Position numbers and translations under genes: made by a program. Shown here piece after piece: positions 1 through 43,786 of a stretch of DNA of 44,127 bases. The DNA comes from Vampirovibrio sp. GTDB taxonomy: Bacteria; Cyanobacteriota; Vampirovibrionia; Vampirovibrionales; Vampirovibrionaceae. The notes beneath the pieces are model-generated. The model made no database searches. It had not been told where the DNA came from and was given only the letters and a program-made list of their open reading frames with translations. How positions within the stretch are numbered: position 1 is the first letter of the stretch; the number at the start of each line of letters is the position of its first letter. The stretch is taken from NCBI GenBank assembly GCA_027448865.1, contig DAIDMR010000329.1, positions 1-44,127 of the forward strand. The letters are read 5' to 3'.

Positions 1-1322
1 GGTACTTGGCGAAACACTGGGCTTTTCTTCATCCAGCGGTGCGTCAGGGTGGTTTGAAAGTCTATACCACCATGGATGAGCCCGTGCAGGAACTGGCCGA
101 AAAAGCACTTTATGACGAGATGGACAAGATCAAATACTCCGGCGCTTCGGAAGGCTCCTTCATCGTACAAAACCTGTCCAATGGGCATATTTTGGCATTG
201 GTGGGCGGCCGGGACTTTGAAAAGAACCAGTTCAACCACGCCACCCAGCAGCACCGTGCCATTGGTTCCACCTTCAAGCCGCTGGTGTACCTGACGGCCT
301 TCCGCCTGGGGCTGGTGTCTCCGGAAAGCCAGATTTCCGACAGCCCGGTGTGCTTTAACAACGGCTACAGCAACTGGTGCCCCCACAACTGGGACGGTCG
401 CTACATGGGTTCTATGACCATCCGCAAGGCCTTAACCCTCTCTCGCAACACCCCTACGGTTAAATTAGGGTTAAAAATGGGCATTGATCCGGTCATTGAG
501 ACCGCCCGACTGGCAGGCATCACCTCCCCCATTGATGCCAATTTCTCCAGCCTGCTGGGTTCCGCGGGGATTTCTCCGCTGGAGGTGATTACGGCCTACT
601 CCACCATCGCCCGTGGCGGTATTTACCTGCCGCCCACGGTATTAATGAAAGTGGAAGACAGCCGGGGACGGGAAATCCACCTGGAACGCCCCCAGCCGGA
701 GCGTCGCTTTGAAGAAGGGCCGGTCTACAACCTGATTTCCATTCTGCAAGACGTAGTGGAAAAAGGAACCGGTAAGAACGCCATTATTCCCGGTCGGGCC
801 GTGGCCGGAAAAACGGGTACCACCGATGAAATGCGGGACATCTGGTTCAGCGGCTTCACCGCCGATATGGTGGGTAGCGTGTGGATGGGCAACGACAAAT
901 ACGTGCCCCTGCGGGGCGTTTTCAGTTCCAACTCGGTGACAGTGTGGGGTAATTTTGCCCGGGAGTACTACAAAATGTACCCGATTCAGGCGGTTGAGTT
1001 TCCCAAGCCGCCCAAAATTCTGGTGGAAAAAAAGTATCTGGGGCCCAGACAGGAAAGTCCTGAAAGCGCAGCGCTGGATGAAGAAAAGCCCAGTGTTTCG
1101 CCAAGTACCCCCACCGCCAAGGCCCCTGCCGTGGACGACCCGGCGTATGGCTATTCTCCCTTGCATCCCGGCGCTGGTGGCATTCCCATGAATAACGACA
1201 ATAACAGCGGAGAACTCAAGCCCCTCATCGATCCCGGTGCCAATCGCCGTCCCGCGACGCTGGCCGCACCATTACCGGCAACCGGCGGGGCCAACACGAA
1301 CCCTGAAAGTGGTGTACACTAG
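1..1322 (+). CDS. Class A penicillin-binding protein (PBP1A family), transpeptidase domain; 5' part missing
   Basis: SxxK (GSTFKP), SxN (SRN) and KTG (KTGT) motifs; GGLKVYTT linker; Pro-rich C-terminal tail. Bases 1-38 are an inverted copy of 1072-1109 (see findings). Confidence 0.93.
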   Translation, partial: YLAKHWAFLHPAVRQGGLKVYTTMDEPVQELAEKALYDEMDKIKYSGASEGSFIVQNLSNGHILALVGGRDFEKNQFNHATQQHRAIGSTFKPLVYLTAFRLGLVSPESQISDSPVCFNNGYSNWCPHNWDGRYMGSMTIRKALTLSRNTPTVKLGLKMGIDPVIETARLAGITSPIDANFSSLLGSAGISPLEVITAYSTIARGGIYLPPTVLMKVEDSRGREIHLERPQPERRFEEGPVYNLISILQDVVEKGTGKNAIIPGRAVAGKTGTTDEMRDIWFSGFTADMVGSVWMGNDKYVPLRGVFSSNSVTVWGNFAREYYKMYPIQAVEFPKPPKILVEKKYLGPRQESPESAALDEEKPSVSPSTPTAKAPAVDDPAYGYSPLHPGAGGIPMNNDNNSGELKPLIDPGANRRPATLAAPLPATGGANTNPESGVH

Positions 1323-2638: not shown

Positions 2639-3042
2639 GAAAAGAGACAGCCATAAGCCGGGTTCTGTTGTAAACGATCATCTGTCTCGACTGGCTGTTT
2701 CCAGCCAGCTCTAGCGGGATACGGGAAGCGGACGAGCAGCCCTTGCAATTGAATGCGGCTTCCATTGGAGACTTGCAAACAGTTGCCTACAGTATCTCCG
2801 GCACCTTGCACCTGTCGGGGTTTACCTGGCCAGGGCCTCTCGACCCTGCCGGTGGGCTCTTACTCCACCGTTGCACCCTTACCTGTGCCTTGCCTTGCGG
2901 CTCGGCCATCGGCGGTCATCATTTCTGTGGCACTATCCTCACGGTCGCCCGCACCGGGCGTTACCCGGCTACATGCTCTGTGGTGCCCGGACTTTCCTCA
3001 GGCGTAGCGCGTACGCCCGCGATCGTTTGTCCGTCTCTTTTC
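2639..3042 (-). ncRNA. rnpB: RNase P RNA (type A)
   Basis: Minus strand carries GAGGAAAGTCCGGGC near the 5' end and ACAGAACCCGGCTTA near the 3' end; P1 helix GAAAAGAGACGG/CTGTCTCTTTTC; about 404 nt. Confidence 0.97.
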
Positions 3043-6542: not shown

Positions 6543-7370
6543 TTAATCCGACGCCCCCCTTTCCCGCATCCGGTTTCCTGCGGGATCAAACCCCTGCGGG
6601 AAGCGAGTCCGTCCGTCATAGACCGCTCCGGCCAGCAAAGCCTGGCTTAAATGGCTCCCCTCATCAAAACTGGTATCGCATACATCGGCCTTTTCCAGAT
6701 GGGACTCCACCAGATCGGTTCCCTGAAAATAGGCGTGCCGCATGTTGGCCTCTTGCAAGTTACCCTGGTGCATGGGCACCCCTTCAAAATGGGCGCCTTC
6801 CATATTGGCCTGAGACAGATCCACATCCACCATGCTGGAAGGGTTACCCTGTAAGGCCATCAAATGCCCTTCATGTCCCATATCCATGCGAAACAAATTG
6901 GCCTGATGCAGGTTCACCTGTTTCAGCCGGGCACCTTCCAGATCCGCTCCGCTCAGGTTGGCGCCCATCAGGTTGGTACCGGATAAAAGGGCATTAAACA
7001 GGGTGGTACCAGTTAAATCGGCCCCTTGCAGATTGGCATTGGTCAGATCCACGCCGGTTAAAATGGCGTTAAAAATTTTGGCCCCTTGCAAGTCAGCCCC
7101 GATTAAAGAAGCGCCTTTTAAAACCGCGCTGGATAGATCGGCGCCCACCAAACTGGCCCCGTCCAAAATGGCTGCGGATAAGTCCGCGTTGACCAAACTG
7201 GCCTGATTGAAATTGGCATGACCAAGGCTGGCTTGCTTAAAATTGGCTTCATCCAGGGTAGCCTTGGCAAAGTTGGCCTCATGCAAATAAGCGCTCTCAA
7301 AAACAGCTCGAGACAACCGTGCGTACGCATAATTCACCGCTTCCAAATGCTGTCCCTTGCAGCAGCGCAT
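6543..7370 (-). CDS. Pentapeptide repeat protein
   Basis: Tandem A(N/D)LxX repeats; C-terminal AVYDGRTRFPQGFDP cap. ATG 7370 has a GGGGAG SD; the ORF is open to 7532. Confidence 0.9.
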   Translation of the reverse strand: MRCCKGQHLEAVNYAYARLSRAVFESAYLHEANFAKATLDEANFKQASLGHANFNQASLVNADLSAAILDGASLVGADLSSAVLKGASLIGADLQGAKIFNAILTGVDLTNANLQGADLTGTTLFNALLSGTNLMGANLSGADLEGARLKQVNLHQANLFRMDMGHEGHLMALQGNPSSMVDVDLSQANMEGAHFEGVPMHQGNLQEANMRHAYFQGTDLVESHLEKADVCDTSFDEGSHLSQALLAGAVYDGRTRFPQGFDPAGNRMRERGASD

Positions 7371-14126: not shown

Positions 14127-15047
14127 ATGAGGGCCTTCATGCGGATTCTGGATCAACTCATCGTCCTGACCTTGCCCTTTGCCCCCAAGGCATTGGTCAA
14201 AAAATTCGCATGGCGTTATGTGGCCGGGGAAACCCTGGAGGAAATGCTGGAGACGGTTCGCCGGCTGAACGCCCAGGGGGCCATGGCCACCGTGGATGTG
14301 TTGGGCGAATTCATTCACGCGCCGCAAGAGGCCCATCAGGCCGCTGCCCTTTATAAAACGGTGCTGGAGGCCATCGCCAGAGAGCGACTGGACGCCAATA
14401 TTTCGGTAAAGCTCAGCCAGATGGGCTTGTTGCTGGATAAAACCCTGTGCTATGAGATTATGCACGATTTGGTAGCCACAGCGGCCAAGGCCCGCATTTT
14501 TGTGCGCATCGACATGGAAGATTCGGCCTGCACCGGCGACACCATTGCCCTGTATTTAAAGTTGCGCAAGCAGTTCGATAACGTGGGCATTGTGCTGCAA
14601 GCCTACCTGCGCCGCACCGTGGGCGATGCCCGACAGATTATGAAAGACTTGAGCAAGATTAACAGCATCGCCAATTTTCGGCTGTGCAAGGGCATTTACC
14701 GGGAGCCCCGCACCCTGGCCTGGCCCAATCACACCCTCATCAACAAAAATTACACCCTTATTCTGGAAGAAATGTTCAAGCAGCAAGCCTATGTGGGAAT
14801 CGCCACCCATAACGAGGAACTGGTTTGGGAGGCCCTGCGCCTGATTGATCAGTATCGGTTAAAGCCTCACGAGTATGAATTTCAGATGCTGTTGGGCGTT
14901 GACCCGGAATTGCGGCAAATTCTGCTGAACGCCGGACACCGGGTGCGGGTTTACGTGCCCTTTGGTCAGGACTGGTTTGCCTACTGCACCCGCCGCCTCA
15001 AAGAGAACCCCTCCATTGCCGGGCATCTGCTGAAAAATTTATGGTGA
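14127..15047 (+). CDS. Monofunctional proline dehydrogenase
   Basis: YVAGET, SVKLSQMG, RIDMED, QAYLRRT, RLCKGIY, ATHN, FQMLLG, YVPFG..RRLKENP. Confidence 0.94.
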   Translation: MRAFMRILDQLIVLTLPFAPKALVKKFAWRYVAGETLEEMLETVRRLNAQGAMATVDVLGEFIHAPQEAHQAAALYKTVLEAIARERLDANISVKLSQMGLLLDKTLCYEIMHDLVATAAKARIFVRIDMEDSACTGDTIALYLKLRKQFDNVGIVLQAYLRRTVGDARQIMKDLSKINSIANFRLCKGIYREPRTLAWPNHTLINKNYTLILEEMFKQQAYVGIATHNEELVWEALRLIDQYRLKPHEYEFQMLLGVDPELRQILLNAGHRVRVYVPFGQDWFAYCTRRLKENPSIAGHLLKNLW

Positions 15048-15190
15048 GGCAGACCCGTCGCAACCCGTTTATAAAGCTGCGTGCAGCTCGAACACACAAT
15101 AGAACTATTTCTGGCAGCACTGCCAAACATCCATTTATAACTCGCTGTACTCAAACAGTTATAAACGGGTTGCGACGGGTCTGCCTCACC
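15043..15190. repeat. Palindromic dispersed element, copy 1 (32-bp perfect inverted arms around an 84-nt core)
   Basis: 15043-15074 is the exact reverse complement of 15159-15190; homologous to 33053-33198. Confidence 0.9.
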
Positions 15191-32716: not shown

Positions 32717-33052
32717 AATGGTACCTTCTTGCAAGAGGTGCTTTTAACGAGAGGGAATGATGTAAGACGTTAGTACCTTCGATTGGTGTCGTGGGTGAGA
32801 GAGGGGTGGGGCAGGCCCGGCGGCAACGAGAACTCTGGCAGGACCTTGCCTGACCATCTTTGCCAATCTGCCCGGAGGAAATTTACCAGAGGTTTCGAGT
32901 GAATTTCCCGACTGTTGGATTAGCCTATTTCAATAAAAGATTAACAGAAAAAAAAGTGCTTTTCAGCCTGTAAAAACAGGATTCGCAATTTCAGAATCCA
33001 TTGCCTGGGGGATATCGGAAAGTCCAAAACCGGGAGGCTCACCCTTTAAAAT

Positions 33053-33198
33053 AGGCAGGGCTCCCTTCACCACACGTTTGTAAAACTGCGCTCAGCTCAA
33101 ACAAACTGTGGAACAGCTTTTGGCAAAGTTGCCCAGCATCTATCCTTAACCCGCTGTACTCAAACAGTTACAAACGTGTGGCGAAGGGAGCCTTGCCT
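33053..33198. repeat. Palindromic dispersed element, copy 2 (31-bp arms with 2 mismatches around an 84-nt core)
   Basis: 33053-33083 pairs with 33168-33198; core is 61/84 identical to copy 1 without gaps. Confidence 0.9.
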
Positions 33199-34226
33199 TA
33201 AAATAACTGGTTGACGAAAGCCAGCCCATCATCGGTCAGGCTGTACTCGCTGACTTCCGCAGTACCGCTTAAATCCGGCACCATGGACAAATACCCCCGG
33301 GACAAGGCCGCCTCCAGGGCACTGTGGTTCACCGGCGTCAGACCGGATTTCACCAGATTGGCGTTAATCCGCTTCAGGGAGAAACAGGCTTGCGCCTCCA
33401 CCTGACTGAGGTAGTAGGCAGCCAGCAGCAAATAATCCTCGGAACTGCCGGGATGGGCCTGATCGCACAAATCGGCCAGTGAGTTCACCAAGTCCAGATT
33501 CATGGGCTGGGCAGCCGACACCGGGGACTGCTCATAAAGCGTCTCAATCACCGGAGCGGTGGGCAACGTCGGCGGGGGAGCTTCCAAATCACGCATCACC
33601 GTATCCATCACCGATTCAAAATCATCCTTGGGCGTTGTACTGGCTGGCTGGACTGTCGCCGATGGCGGCACCACCGATAAAGCAGGCGGGGCCGAAACCT
33701 CTGGAGGCTGGGCGGGCAGAGCAACAGGGGCGGCGGTAACCGATTCAACCGTCGGCGGCAGGGGGACGACGGGCTCCGGGAGCGTTTGCACCGGGGCAGC
33801 CATGGCCGGAGCGGAAGGTTCTGGCACGGAAGGTTCTGACAAGGGAGCCGAGACTGGCAACACCGGGGGTTCCGGGACGATGACTGCTGGAGCAGGCTCT
33901 GAAGCGGGAGAGGCGGGGGACTCAGCCGCAACTGGAACCGGGGCCACAGGGGCAGTGGGGACAACCACCGGCACGGGAGGCGGGATTTCTGGCGTAATCT
34001 CAGAAACCGCGGGGCCAGAAACTACGGGTGTACTGGCCGGAACAACGGGATGGGGGGGGGCCACCGAAGCGGGTTTGGGGAGGCTGACCGGCACATAACT
34101 GTCATCCAGCAAAATGCGAAACCACTTGTCCATTTGCTTGGAGACGAAATAGACATCATCCGAGGACAGGTTGATAAACAGCCCATCTTTTTTAAGGCTC
34201 ATTTCATAACGATGTGGGGCATCCAT
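33198..34226 (-). CDS. Hypothetical protein: short N-terminal domain, long Pro/Ala/Val linker, winged-helix-like C-terminal domain
   Basis: AAGGAG SD before ATG 34226; C-terminus LLLAAYYL..FSLKRIN..ALSRGYL..YSLTDDG. Confidence 0.8.
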   Translation of the reverse strand: MDAPHRYEMSLKKDGLFINLSSDDVYFVSKQMDKWFRILLDDSYVPVSLPKPASVAPPHPVVPASTPVVSGPAVSEITPEIPPPVPVVVPTAPVAPVPVAAESPASPASEPAPAVIVPEPPVLPVSAPLSEPSVPEPSAPAMAAPVQTLPEPVVPLPPTVESVTAAPVALPAQPPEVSAPPALSVVPPSATVQPASTTPKDDFESVMDTVMRDLEAPPPTLPTAPVIETLYEQSPVSAAQPMNLDLVNSLADLCDQAHPGSSEDYLLLAAYYLSQVEAQACFSLKRINANLVKSGLTPVNHSALEAALSRGYLSMVPDLSGTAEVSEYSLTDDGLAFVNQLF

Positions 34227-34513
34227 GACTACGAGACTCCTTGCCGTGCGGGCCTGGGCCAAATACTATCTCTCTATCAGCGGGTACTCACCCAAAGAAC
34301 GGGGCCCACCATCAGCAACCTGTAAGACATCGACCAAGCCTGGCGACTGGAGAGAAAGCGGAACCAGCAGCCTCATTTTGGGCCAGCCTATTGCCGATTA
34401 AAACCATTATAGGAGGTAATAAGCCATAATACATTCTACGCGTGGTGGAGATTTGAAGAACCAGCCCAACGGGCAGCCTTGGTCACAAAGGGGCCTAAGC
34501 CGGGCGAAAGCGT

Positions 34514-42850: not shown

Positions 42851-43786
42851 ATGCTTGCCATCAAAAGCCAAAATGGCGCTTTGCTGCTGGAAATCGCCGC
42901 TGAAAATCTGCTTTACGCGGATTTAAGCGGTCAAGAGCTGCCGAATGCGGAATTCTGTCACTCCGTGCTGTTTAATTCCAATCTCTCGGGGGCCAATCTT
43001 GCCAATGCCAATTTTCGGGGTGCCAACCTGGGCAACAGCACTCTAAAAGAGGCGAATTTAAGCAAAGCCATTTTCAAAGGGGCCAAACTGGAGGGCGCCA
43101 ACCTGAGCAGCGCCATGCTGGAGAAAGCCAACCTGTCCACCGCGCACTGCGTAAAAACCAACTTTACCAGCGCCAATTTGCGGCTGGCCGATCTCAGCCA
43201 ATCCGATTTTGGACAGGCCACTTTGGTCAAAGCTTACCTGGAAATGGCCGAACTGTGGGAGGGCAAGTTTGCCCACGCCAATTTTACGGAAGCCCATCTG
43301 GTCAAAGCCAACTTTTTAAAGGCACAGGCCCACTCTGCCGTATTTGTTCAGGCCAACATGGACAAAGCCGACCTGGAGATGGCCCAGATGGGCTGGGCCG
43401 ATCTGACTCAGGCCAGCCTGCAGGGAGCCTTGATGCGGAACGCCAAGTTCCCTTCAGCCATCCTTCACCGGGCCAACTTACAGCAGGCCAACCTGAACCA
43501 GGCCCAATTCACCCAGGCCAGTCTATGCGACGCTTCCCTCCAGGGCGTTAAAGCCTTTCAGACCAATTTCAGCCAGGCCAATTTAAAAGGGGCCGATCTC
43601 AGCAGGGCGTCTCTGCAAGGGGCGATTTTCACCCTGGCGAATCTGGAAAACACCAATCTCAAAGGGGCTGACCTGCAAGGGGCCATCCTGAAAGGGGCCA
43701 AATACAACGACAACACCGTCTTTCCAAACGATATCAAACCGGAACAACAAGGCCTGATTTACGTAAAACTCATTGAACAAAATTAA
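42851..43786 (+). CDS. Pentapeptide repeat protein
   Basis: Long run of ANL-type repeats; AKYNDNTVFP cap. Confidence 0.93.
   Translation: MLAIKSQNGALLLEIAAENLLYADLSGQELPNAEFCHSVLFNSNLSGANLANANFRGANLGNSTLKEANLSKAIFKGAKLEGANLSSAMLEKANLSTAHCVKTNFTSANLRLADLSQSDFGQATLVKAYLEMAELWEGKFAHANFTEAHLVKANFLKAQAHSAVFVQANMDKADLEMAQMGWADLTQASLQGALMRNAKFPSAILHRANLQQANLNQAQFTQASLCDASLQGVKAFQTNFSQANLKGADLSRASLQGAIFTLANLENTNLKGADLQGAILKGAKYNDNTVFPNDIKPEQQGLIYVKLIEQN

What the first reader, a model, noticed from the sequence alone, without database searches (positions are those of the whole stretch)
15043..15190. Uncharacterised dispersed ~147-bp hairpin element with co-varying arms and a fixed 84-nt core (partner at 33053-33198)
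Seen: copy 1 has perfect 32-bp inverted arms and copy 2 has 31-bp arms with 2 mismatches. Both enclose exactly 84 nt, 61/84 identical with no gaps, ending in an identical CGCTGTACTCAAACAG. The arms differ between copies (CCCGTCGCAACCCGTTTATAA vs CCCTTCGCCACACGTTTGTAA, the latter read from the 3' arm), and all four of these substitutions are mirrored in the opposite arm. An inner hairpin also co-varies (GGCAG..CTGCC vs GGCAA..TTGCC), and two more small hairpins are possible (AGCTGC/GCAGCT; AATAG/CTATT). Each copy overlaps a stop codon. Inference: a selected ssDNA or RNA structure, either a lineage-specific MITE/REP-like mobile hairpin or a multi-copy structured ncRNA. I recognise no Rfam or IS family, and no cognate enzyme is encoded in the window.
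Basis: partly seen in the sequence, partly recalled or inferred. Interest (0 to 1): 0.8.

Follow-up and report, generated by a model that had tools for sequence, protein, structure and literature searches.

The report
Mobile hairpin repeat (MITE) of Vampirovibrio
This is a small non-coding "jumping" DNA element present in dozens of copies in some Vampirovibrio bacteria; it is ordinary in kind, but its two arms keep changing in step with each other, and its copies mark a disputed "giant phage" genome record as Vampirovibrio DNA.

Summary
Both copies have the stated arms, an 84-nt core and 61/84 core identity.

[quoted passage not shown] It is about 144 bp long, with ~30-bp terminal inverted repeats that begin GG and end CC, and it is flanked by 8-bp AT-rich target-site duplications. 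The window's genome holds 44 loci. The family is strong in 4 of 8 genomes of the genus and only weakly matched elsewhere in the order.

Sister genomes show a clean empty site and an excision footprint at copy 2, and a conserved ortholog at copy 1.

Arm covariation is real: 27 of 30 pairs covary. It also arises in place between orthologous copies and does not depend on insertion age. I infer hairpin-templated copying between the arms (replication template switching) rather than RNA selection.

I found no cognate transposase, no Y1/RAYT gene and no Rfam family.

In passing: the whole window is collinear (86-87.5% identity) with the record "Microcystis phage MaAM05". That record carries about 8 copies of this MITE and a bacterial RNase P RNA. 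This bears on a dispute published in 2026.

Verdict: a new member of a known kind, with moderate interest.

The parts
15043..15190 (+). MITE copy 1, whole element. It sits between the convergent proline-dehydrogenase-like ORF and murJ. No target-site duplication is recognisable.
   Evidence: model R1 match 15045-15188, E 1.7e-31. Orthologous copies lie in G006 (L043) and in record MW495066.1 at 103081-103227. The element is absent at this site in G001 and G007.
15043..15074 (+). Left arm of copy 1 (32 nt). It carries a 2-nt insertion relative to the family consensus, mirrored in the right arm.
15159..15190 (+). Right arm of copy 1 (32 nt), perfectly complementary to the left arm.
15073..15094 (+). 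Conserved left core block of copy 1 (AAAGCTGCGTGCAGCTCGAACA). It is a diverged direct repeat of the right block.
   Evidence: Near-invariant columns in alignment A1. The comparison of the two blocks is my own reading of the consensus.
15139..15158 (+). Conserved right core block of copy 1 (AACTCGCTGTACTCAAACAG). This is the most conserved motif of the family.
15045..15047 (+). TGA stop of the proline-dehydrogenase-like ORF (14127-15047), supplied by the element. Empty-site genomes read 5 codons further.
33054..33197 (+). MITE copy 2, whole element (GG...CC).
   Evidence: R1 match 33054-33197, E 1.8e-35.
33046..33053 (.). Left copy of the 8-bp target-site duplication TTAAAATA.
   Evidence: The empty site in G001 holds a single TTAAAACA.
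33198..33205 (.). Right copy of the duplication TTAAAATA. It contains the stop codon of ORF 33198-34262 (-).
33148..33167 (+). Conserved right core block of copy 2 (AACCCGCTGTACTCAAACAG).

Best explanation
The element is a non-autonomous DNA transposon (MITE) specific to a subclade of the genus Vampirovibrio. It is about 144 bp long. It has ~30-bp terminal inverted repeats that start GG and end CC, and an asymmetric ~84-nt core whose two ends are conserved blocks.

Shown: it inserts into AT-rich 8-mers, which it duplicates. Because such 8-mers cluster at gene ends (TAA stops), copies sit just downstream of genes and sometimes replace or duplicate a stop codon. It can also be lost, leaving a footprint.

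Inferred: it is moved in trans by a transposase that makes 8-bp staggered cuts (DDE type). That enzyme is not in the assemblies.

Shown: the two arms evolve in concert at each locus. Inferred, with about 55% of my belief for this sub-step: the cause is hairpin-templated copying between the arms during replication (quasipalindrome template switching, or intra-element conversion). This mirrors substitutions and indels, occasionally flips the core, and can extend the palindrome into the flanks. Selection for a hairpin at each locus (terminator or mRNA 3' stabiliser) is the main alternative for this sub-step (about 35%).
For: Copy number and spread. nhmmer finds 44 non-overlapping loci in the window's genome, 35 of them near full length. 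BLAST finds the family in 4 of 41 related genomes, all in one genus, and in 0 of the 4 other congeners. An exact 24-mer scan of named genome records hit only two records titled Vampirovibrio chlorellavorus (20 stretches), and all 20 lie in MITE-sized or truncated copies.

Target-site duplication. At least 7 of 8 flank positions match in 56 of 109 copies, against 9.3% of mismatched-flank controls. Of those 56, 36 are at the predicted GG/CC ends, and 20 of the 109 are perfect 8/8.

Mobility. At the copy-2 site G001 has a single TTAAAACA. G006 has TTAAAATA-GGCAAGGCTGCC-TTAAAATA, which is both duplicates plus 12 nt of terminus. G007 is empty, and record MW495066.1 is empty there too. A contig in run X4 also joins across the element. 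Two copies in the window's genome, C63 and C278, are 98.6% identical but have different duplications.

Context. All 33 near-full copies in the window's genome are intergenic by crude ORF calls: 11 between convergent genes, 14 tandem, 2 divergent and 6 unclassified for lack of a flanking ORF on one side. About 10 lie within 6 nt of a stop codon or overlap one.

Arms. 27 of 30 pairs change on both sides, with 376 double-changed cells against 89.6 +/- 7.3 in shuffles and 46-73 when the partner columns are slid. Between orthologous copies there are 18 compensatory double changes in 420 pair comparisons, against 7.2 double hits expected under independence; about a third of those (roughly 2.4, my estimate) would be complementary by chance. 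The ortholog of copy 1 in MW495066.1 has perfect 31-bp arms although its arm sequence differs widely from the window's. Arm mismatch (9.6%) is unrelated to decay of the duplication (32% mismatch; rho -0.02; 74 copies). Flanks are palindromic (at least 6 of 8) in 15 of 74 copies against 7.6% in controls. At one orthologous locus (set D) the core is inverted relative to the flanks, yet the two copies are each other's closest relatives.

Literature. Template switching at quasipalindromes is an established mutational mechanism (abstract of PMC7202029; abstract and introduction of PMC8794818).
Against: No autonomous element was found. No pair of left and right conserved blocks lies 130-6000 nt apart in G001, G006 or G007, apart from one 224-nt variant. 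Solo ends in the window's genome are degenerate remnants. None of the transposase loci I fetched has MITE-like ends; these covered the IS1, IS4/5, IS1595, IS66 and rve Pfam families, and ISL3 and IS256 were absent altogether.

The outer ~20 bp of the arms are far more variable than is usual for transposase-bound inverted repeats.

The two conserved core blocks are in direct, not inverted, orientation.

A related loop motif occurs in other hairpin repeats of the class. This hints at recognition of a hairpin plus loop motif rather than of the terminal repeats.

Template switching itself was not observed, only patterns that fit it. Selection for pairing is not excluded.

Copy 1 has no visible duplication.
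Confidence: 0.85

Rival explanations
1. It is a multi-copy structured non-coding RNA gene, or a cis-acting RNA hairpin, whose stem is kept by selection on RNA. Dispersal and duplications would be secondary.
For: The stem covaries strongly. Conserved loop blocks are kept across genera with quite different stems. The core is conserved between orthologs (98% in set F) while the flanks are 84-92% identical. In most copies the core contains a small hairpin followed by a T-run (consensus).
Against: Eight-bp duplications, an empty site and a footprint show DNA mobility. There is no Rfam match at gathering threshold or at E <= 1, apart from far-sub-threshold plant miRNA hairpins. The scan found no sigma-70-like promoter or intrinsic terminator at either copy. 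Orientation relative to the adjacent gene is about 6:7 (my tally). G-T is not enriched over A-C on the element's strand: 61 vs 112 and 36 vs 61. The reverse excess is not consistent, being 16 vs 18 in the window's genome. Many compensations are transversions with no G-U path. The inner hairpins do not covary. Laying RNA-library contigs was uninformative.
Confidence: 0.05
2. It is a REP/BIME-type or IS200/IS605-type palindromic element, moved as single-stranded DNA by an HUH (Y1) enzyme that recognises hairpin shape plus a short motif.
For: The stem is variable in sequence but conserved in structure, and it has a conserved motif abutting it. In the gut-type relatives that motif fills the hairpin loop.
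Against: Such elements make no target duplication (established knowledge of the IS200/IS605 and RAYT systems, recalled). Here there is a uniform 8-bp duplication. No Y1_Tnp (PF01797) match was found in 0 of 8 genomes of the genus, while the control genomes responded (one search is not this). The 8-mers show no fixed target tetranucleotide beside the ends. At 144 bp the element is much longer than a REP.
Confidence: 0.03
3. It is a MITE whose hairpin is kept by selection at each locus for a host function, such as a bidirectional terminator, insulator or mRNA 3'-end protector. On this reading arm covariation is ordinary compensatory evolution and not a copying mechanism. This rivals only the sub-mechanism of the best explanation.
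For: Copies concentrate just downstream of genes: 11 convergent and 14 tandem against 2 divergent. Complementarity persists in old copies. Orthologous cores are conserved. MITE hairpins affecting mRNA fate are described (passages of the review PMC3184786).
Against: Arms diverge as fast as or faster than their surroundings yet stay perfect, which slow two-step compensation does not predict. Mirrored 2-3-nt indels occur. Palindromy spreads into the flanks. A core has flipped. The steady 9-10% mismatch is the same in young and old copies.
Confidence: 0.3

Closest known systems
bcr1 repeat of the Bacillus cereus group. I know it only through passages of the review PMC3184786.
   Same: It is a dispersed element of about 155 bp, flanked by short direct repeats, with a non-conserved genomic distribution between strains. 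It forms a long hairpin or cruciform, and base-pair compensatory changes keep the stem.
   Different: bcr1 has 5-bp flanking repeats whereas this element has 8 bp. The host phylum is different. For bcr1 the compensation is attributed to RNA structure, and the element is reported as transcribed. Sequence similarity was not tested here.
Nezha and other cyanobacterial MITEs. Known to me from review passages in PMC3184786; Zhou et al. 2008 was not read.
   Same: The size is similar (130-170 bp). They have terminal inverted repeats, flanking direct repeats and a stable predicted hairpin. Filled and empty sites between close relatives serve as evidence of mobility.
   Different: Nezha shares its inverted repeats with a known IS (ISNpu3). 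No cognate IS was found for the Vampirovibrio element, and its outer arms are hypervariable.
Quasipalindrome-associated template-switch mutation. Sources: abstract of PMC7202029; abstract and introduction of PMC8794818.
   Same: This is a one-step conversion of an imperfect inverted repeat to a perfect one. It gives multi-base 'compensatory' changes without an unpaired intermediate, and it can create or repair stems.
   Different: It has been described for reporter genes and RNA genes. To my knowledge and in my searches it has not been described as the force keeping MITE arms complementary. Here it is inferred, not observed.
IS1595-family insertion sequences. That this family makes 8-bp duplications is recalled from memory and comes from no call.
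   Same: A uniform 8-bp duplication. An IS1595-type transposase is present in G001 (full length) and in the window's genome (fragment).
   Different: The inverted repeats of the G001 copy do not match the MITE profile. No IS1595 match was found in G006 or G007, which also carry the MITE.

Membership tests
MITE (as characterised in the review PMC3184786) | Small (mostly under 200 bp) and without a transposase gene | tested here: met
   Aligned copies are 124-173 nt, mostly 140-147. ORFs across copy 1 are only chance frames of 51 and 72 aa.
MITE | Terminal inverted repeats | tested here: met
   The arms are about 30 bp and 91.9% of cells are paired over 101 copies.
MITE | Flanking direct repeats (target-site duplication) | tested here: met
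   The duplication is 8 bp. At least 7 of 8 positions match in 56 of 109 copies against 9.3% of controls.
MITE | Multiple dispersed copies, with filled and empty sites between relatives | tested here: met
   44 loci in the window's genome. An empty site and a footprint at the copy-2 locus, and presence or absence at the copy-1 locus.
MITE | A cognate autonomous IS with the same ends (usual, not obligatory) | tested here: inconclusive
   None was found. However, the window's genome is only 76% complete, only seven transposase Pfam families plus Y1 were scanned, and ISfinder is not available here.
REP / RAYT system | A cognate Y1 (RAYT) gene in the genome, and no target duplication | tested here: not met
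   PF01797 matched 0 of 8 genomes. 8-bp duplications are present.
IS200/IS605-derived palindromic elements | Insertion without duplication next to a fixed short target, with a Y1 transposase | tested here: not met
Any Rfam RNA family | A score at or above the family's gathering threshold | tested here: not met
   The only matches are plant miRNA-precursor models at 19-27 bits, against thresholds of 230-330.
IS1-derived MITE (a lead from memory only) | An IS1-type transposase with matching ends in the same genomes | tested here: not met
   PF03400 gave one weak match, in G006 only. It lies in AT-rich DNA and has no MITE-like inverted repeats.

The most novel reading that the evidence does not exclude
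The mobile unit may not be defined by its terminal repeats at all. It may instead be 'any stem plus a conserved ~20-nt loop motif (AACTCGCTGnnCTCAAACA)'. On this reading, an old superfamily of hairpin elements specific to the class Vampirovibrionia is recognised by shape plus loop motif, by an unidentified enzyme that nevertheless makes 8-bp staggered cuts at the base of the stem. The stems would then be free to drift and would be rebuilt by hairpin-templated synthesis at each generation.

Several observations hint at this. The same motif abuts the 3' strand of unrelated co-varying stems in other genera and families. Ends vary by +2 or +3 mirrored nucleotides, with the duplication lying outside them. 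No matching IS has been found.
Probability: 0.12. Interest if true: 0.8.

Novelty: new member of a known kind. Interest (0 to 1): 0.5.

Why it matters
1. It adds a well-documented MITE family to a little-studied lineage: predatory, non-photosynthetic relatives of cyanobacteria. My two literature searches found no paper linking Vampirovibrio with MITEs, and the genome paper does not mention one. The supplement of the large MITE census PMC11602168 could not be read, so the family may be listed there.

2. It is a clean natural data set for a general question: are 'compensatory' changes in long stems evidence of selection, or of hairpin-templated mutation? Orthologous copies, duplications that date each insertion, mirrored indels and a flipped core let the two be separated. 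They also warn against reading covariation in palindromic repeats as proof of an RNA function.

3. The element is a lineage marker. About 8 copies lie in the 274-kb record 'Microcystis phage MaAM05' (PhiMa05). That record also carries a bacterial RNase P RNA and is collinear with this window. In all 8 Vampirovibrio genomes the single RNase P RNA gene lies in this same neighbourhood. This is direct, simple evidence for the published 2026 dispute over whether that record is a phage genome or bacterial DNA.

Tried and rejected
IS1 origin. This was a lead from memory of IS1 ends. PF03400 gave one weak hit, in G006, with unrelated ends, so I rejected it.

Other transposase families.
- ISL3 (PF01610) and IS256 (PF00872): 0 of 4 genomes.
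- IS4/5 (PF01609): 5 loci, none with MITE-like ends. One of them is an IS5-like element in the window's genome (C113), whose 32-nt inverted repeats are unrelated.
- IS1595 (PF12762), IS66 (PF03050) and rve (PF00665) across 8 genomes: only the 24 fetched loci were checked with the arm profiles. Nothing scored better than E 0.01. A 17-nt resemblance to the right block near an IS1595 fragment in G003 (L157) lies about 95 nt from that IS end, and I treated it as chance.

Public collections. Two exact-pattern scans of the metagenome contigs and one of the viral contigs found nothing. The plasmid collection gave no match.

RNA evidence. Eighteen runs listed as RNA hold part of the stretch. I laid four of them. 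All are contigs. They break at the repeat or belong to other copies, and DNA may be present in them, so nothing can be concluded about transcription.

G-T vs A-C asymmetry. The counts were 61 vs 112 on 101 copies and 36 vs 61 on 74 copies (p 0.014, copies not independent), but 16 vs 18 in the window's genome. I judged this not robust.

Inner hairpins. They show no covariation, although the MAFFT alignment is noisy there.

Core inversion. Three orthologous loci have the flanks matched in inverted order. One (set G) is an independent insertion by a different subfamily (core identity 0.61, rank 25 of 25). One (set B) is ambiguous (rank 5 of 17). Only set D supports a flip in place.

Literature. 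The supplement of PMC11602168 was unreadable.
Full report
**1. The observation**

Copy 1 has arms 15043-15074 and 15159-15190, 32 nt and 100% complementary. Copy 2 has arms 33053-33083 and 33168-33198, 31 nt and 94% complementary. Each pair encloses 84 nt. The two cores are 61/84 identical without gaps and share the terminal CGCTGTACTCAAACAG. As single-stranded DNA, all four strands fold far better than shuffles: -37.8 to -50.6 kcal/mol, z -7.0 to -13.5, with 0 of 200 shuffles as good. So the structure is real and is not chance.

**2. It is a repeat family, not a pair**

BLAST of copy 1 against the window's own assembly gave 47 matches. That assembly has 353 contigs, 2.69 Mb, and is 76% complete. 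Two rounds of nhmmer gave 44 non-overlapping loci, of which 35 are near full length (about 143 nt) and the rest are fragments.

Among 41 related genomes, BLAST finds the family in the window's genome and in three of its seven congeners (G001, G006, G007). It does not find it in the other four congeners or in 33 genomes of 27 other genera.

A covariance model built from 101 copies (R1) gives 51-122 matches per carrier genome when both strands are counted. Over 49 genomes of the order it gives the same four carriers, plus weak matches in three other genera.

An exact 24-mer scan of about 185,000 named species genomes hit only two records titled Vampirovibrio chlorellavorus (20 stretches). All of those hits are MITE-sized or truncated copies. 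The genus is therefore Vampirovibrio.

**3. Anatomy**

The aligned copies give this consensus: GGTAAGGCTGCCTTCACAACACGTTTGTAAAACTGCGTGCAGCTCAAACAA ... (variable, with a small GGCAA/TTGCC-type hairpin and usually a T-run) ... TTAACTCGCTGTACTCAAACAGTTACAAACGTGTTGTGAAGGCAGCCTTACC.

The near-invariant positions are:
- the tips (GG/CC);
- a few spaced arm positions;
- the inner arm (GTTT..AA);
- the two core-end blocks.

The remaining outer ~20 bp of each arm vary greatly. By my own reading of the consensus, the two core-end blocks are diverged direct repeats of each other.

**4. It is mobile DNA**

Target-site duplication. The 8 nt outside GG...CC are direct repeats. At least 7 of 8 positions match in 56 of 109 distinct copies (best of 49 offsets), against 9.3% when the left flank of one copy is paired with the right flank of another. 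Of those 56, 36 are at the predicted offset, and 20 of the 109 are perfect. The 8-mers are AT-rich. The 109 copies are 33 from the window's genome and 76 from congeners, with identical sequences counted once.

Copy 2 has TTAAAATA on both sides. At the orthologous site:
- G001 has a single TTAAAACA;
- G007 is empty;
- G006 carries TTAAAATA-GGCAAGGCTGCC-TTAAAATA. This is both duplicates plus 12 nt of the left terminus, as expected from a deletion between the two TGCC microhomologies of the arms.

Record MW495066.1 is also empty there. A contig in a run of a related strain joins across the element.

Copy 1 is present in G006 (145 of 148 positions identical) and in MW495066.1, and absent in G001 and G007. 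In those two genomes the proline-dehydrogenase-like ORF ends ...KNLFSRGE* instead of ...KNLW*. The element therefore replaced the last codons and supplies the TGA.

The family is old. Median pairwise identity is 0.70-0.76. There is still some recent movement: copies C63 and C278 are 98.6% identical with different duplications.

**5. Why the copies touch stop codons**

By crude ORF calls, all 33 near-full copies of the window's genome are intergenic: 11 lie between convergent genes, 14 between tandem genes, 2 between divergent genes, and 6 lack a called ORF on one side. About 10 lie within 6 nt of a stop codon or overlap one.

AT-rich 8-mers in a 53% G+C genome cluster at gene ends and often include TAA. 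For copies next to a 3' end, orientation relative to the upstream gene is about 6 same to 7 opposite (my tally).

**6. The arms co-vary, and they do so in place**

On 101 copies:
- 91.9% of cells are paired, against 77.0% in shuffles and 33-42% when the partners are slid;
- 27 of 30 pairs change on both sides;
- 376 cells are double-changed, against 89.6 +/- 7.3 in shuffles (0 of 500 shuffles reach this) and 46-73 when slid.

Such counts are inflated by shared ancestry, so I looked at orthologs. Flank BLAST defined 15 loci shared between genomes. In 14 orthologous pairs there are 18 Watson-Crick-to-Watson-Crick double changes among 420 arm-pair comparisons. Under independence 7.2 double hits are expected, of which about a third would be complementary by chance. 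Many of the observed changes are transversions, such as A-T to C-G or G-C to C-G.

The most striking case is copy 1 itself. Its ortholog in MW495066.1 shares the insertion point and the copy-specific core features, and it has perfect 31-bp arms. Yet the middle of the arm sequence is almost entirely different from the window's, which is also perfect.

Copy 1 also carries a 2-nt insertion mirrored in both arms. One copy (C348) has 3 extra mirrored nucleotides, with a perfect 8-bp duplication lying outside them.

Among 74 copies with clear ends:
- the duplications have decayed to 32% mismatch on average (random flanks give 59%);
- arm mismatch is 9.6% and unrelated to that decay (rho -0.02);
- copies with 5-7 mismatches in the duplication are as well paired as copies with none.

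Flanks are palindromic (at least 6 of 8) in 15 of 74 copies, against 7.6% expected.

At one orthologous locus (set D) the core is inverted relative to the flanks, while the two copies remain each other's closest relatives (core identity 0.92, next best 0.84). A second such locus is ambiguous, and a third is an independent insertion.

**7. What keeps the arms paired**

Selection for the ability to transpose cannot explain compensation in resident orthologs.

RNA-level selection is poorly supported:
- G-T pairs are not favoured over A-C;
- transversion mismatches are as common as transitions;
- the inner hairpins do not covary;
- no promoter or terminator pattern was found, and there is no orientation bias.

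Together, these patterns fit copying of one arm from the other through a hairpin or strand switch during replication: mirrored transversions, mirrored indels, fast-drifting but perfect arms, outward spread of palindromy, and an occasional flip. This is the quasipalindrome template-switch process known from E. coli and proposed to repair RNA-gene stems (abstract of PMC7202029; abstract and introduction of PMC8794818).

I hold this at about 55%. Locus-by-locus selection for a hairpin (terminator or stabiliser) is at about 35%. It is inference, and no event was observed.

**8. The missing enzyme**

In the window's genome no two ends lie far apart, and solo ends are decayed remnants. In G001, G006 and G007 no left and right blocks lie 130-6000 nt apart, except for one 224-nt variant.

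Pfam scans gave the following:
- IS1: one weak, unrelated locus;
- ISL3 and IS256: none in 4 genomes;
- IS4/5: 5 loci;
- IS1595, IS66 and rve over 8 genomes;
- Y1/RAYT: none in 8 genomes.

None of the fetched loci has MITE-like ends. The metagenome, viral and plasmid collections gave nothing.

A uniform 8-bp duplication points to a DDE-type transposase. IS1595 relatives are the only family seen here that I recall as making 8-bp duplications, but they are missing from two of the carrier genomes.

**9. A wider, older module**

R1's weak matches in two other genera keep the core blocks but have different or shorter arms.

I ran a 17-nt pattern search over 201 genomes of the class. Outside the genus it is mostly at control level. 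The exception is one family of small genomes, where G188 has 5 copies.

In those genomes the motif AAACTCGCTGnnCTCAAACAAT fills the loop of a short stem that co-varies between genomes. That stem lies inside a multi-copy element of about 190 nt. An upstream block (CTGCAAGGCT..GGCAT) is shared with the other-genus copies. There is no Rfam match. I did not take this further. It underlies the 'novel case'.

**10. Comparison with known elements**

The element meets the descriptive definition of a MITE (review PMC3184786, passages read).

The closest described analogue is bcr1 of the Bacillus cereus group: about 155 bp, 5-bp flanking repeats, and compensatory changes keeping a cruciform-like structure (same review).

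It fails the tests for REP/RAYT elements, for IS200/IS605 derivatives, and for any Rfam family.

I found no paper that pairs Vampirovibrio with MITEs. The V. chlorellavorus genome paper lists 13 transposases and mentions no MITE or palindromic repeat. A census of prokaryotic MITEs does not name the genus in its main text, and its supplement could not be read.

**11. Noticed on the way**

The MITE matched a phage-collection record, 'Microcystis phage MaAM05' (MW495066.1, 273,876 bp), at 90% identity. R1 finds about 8 loci there. That is one per ~34 kb, similar to the density in the carrier genomes by my estimate.

The whole window is collinear with positions 74157-118256 of that record. Identity is 87.5% over 95% of window 1-25000 and 85.6% over 89% of window 20000-44127.

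The record's annotation there lists murJ, proline dehydrogenase, acdA, fabI, engB, fliM, mtgA and prs. An unannotated gap holds a full bacterial RNase P RNA (251.8 bits).

Each of the 8 genomes of the genus has exactly one RNase P RNA gene. In the six where both places are listed on one contig, it lies 12-15 kb from the proline-dehydrogenase/murJ locus. All 8 genomes hold both loci that I probed, and identity falls with distance, from 92% down to 74%.

This stretch is therefore core Vampirovibrio chromosome. A 2026 exchange debates whether PhiMa05 is a phage or bacterial DNA. I read the whole of part 1 of the reply PMC13623530, passages of the comment PMC13623518, and only the abstract listing of the original article PMC13157829. 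The comment as searched does not mention RNase P, synteny or repeats.

**12. Verdict**

This is a genuine and well-supported MITE family: a new member of a known kind. It has an unusually clear record of concerted arm evolution, and it has side value as a lineage marker.

Noticed in passing
whole window 1-44127; MW495066.1 74157-118256 (loci L189, L198, L199): The entire window is collinear at 86-87.5% identity with the record 'Microcystis phage MaAM05' (PhiMa05). That record carries about 8 copies of this Vampirovibrio MITE, housekeeping genes and a full bacterial RNase P RNA. Every one of 8 Vampirovibrio genomes has its single RNase P RNA gene in this same neighbourhood. This supports the view, disputed in print in 2026, that at least this part of the record is Vampirovibrio chromosomal DNA.
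   Followed up: partly
L175 1501-1624, L176 1501-1646, L177-L187 (other genera and families of the class): A ~20-nt motif (AAACTCGCTGnnCTCAAACAAT) and an upstream block are shared with other multi-copy hairpin elements of the class. Those elements have unrelated stems that co-vary between genomes. In one family of small genomes the motif fills a hairpin loop inside a repeat of about 190 nt. There is no Rfam match.
   Followed up: partly
window 1-43 and 1067-1109: The first 43 nt of the contig are the reverse complement (98%) of 1067-1109, inside a penicillin-binding-protein-like ORF. This is probably a fold-back artefact at the contig end.
   Followed up: no
window 2639-3038 (-): A bacterial class A RNase P RNA, 245 bits.
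   Followed up: yes
window 6785-7250 and 42960-43700: Two arrays of degenerate 15-nt-periodic repeats on opposite strands, which also match each other as inverted repeats. They look like genes for pentapeptide-repeat proteins (this is my reading and was not tested).
   Followed up: no
L053 (G006), orthologous to window 33046-33205: An excision footprint: both 8-bp duplicates are kept, with 12 nt of the element's terminus between them. This fits a deletion between 4-nt microhomologies in the two arms.
   Followed up: yes
L165 (G000:C224) 395-770: A cluster of nested inverted and direct repeats of TGTAACCAGTGTAACC-type units, next to an rve-type transposase ORF. It is unrelated to the MITE.
   Followed up: no
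L144 (G001:C6, 1264 nt): A short, very G+C-rich contig that holds only a DDE transposase fragment. Its composition is unlike the rest of the genome, so it may be contamination.
   Followed up: no
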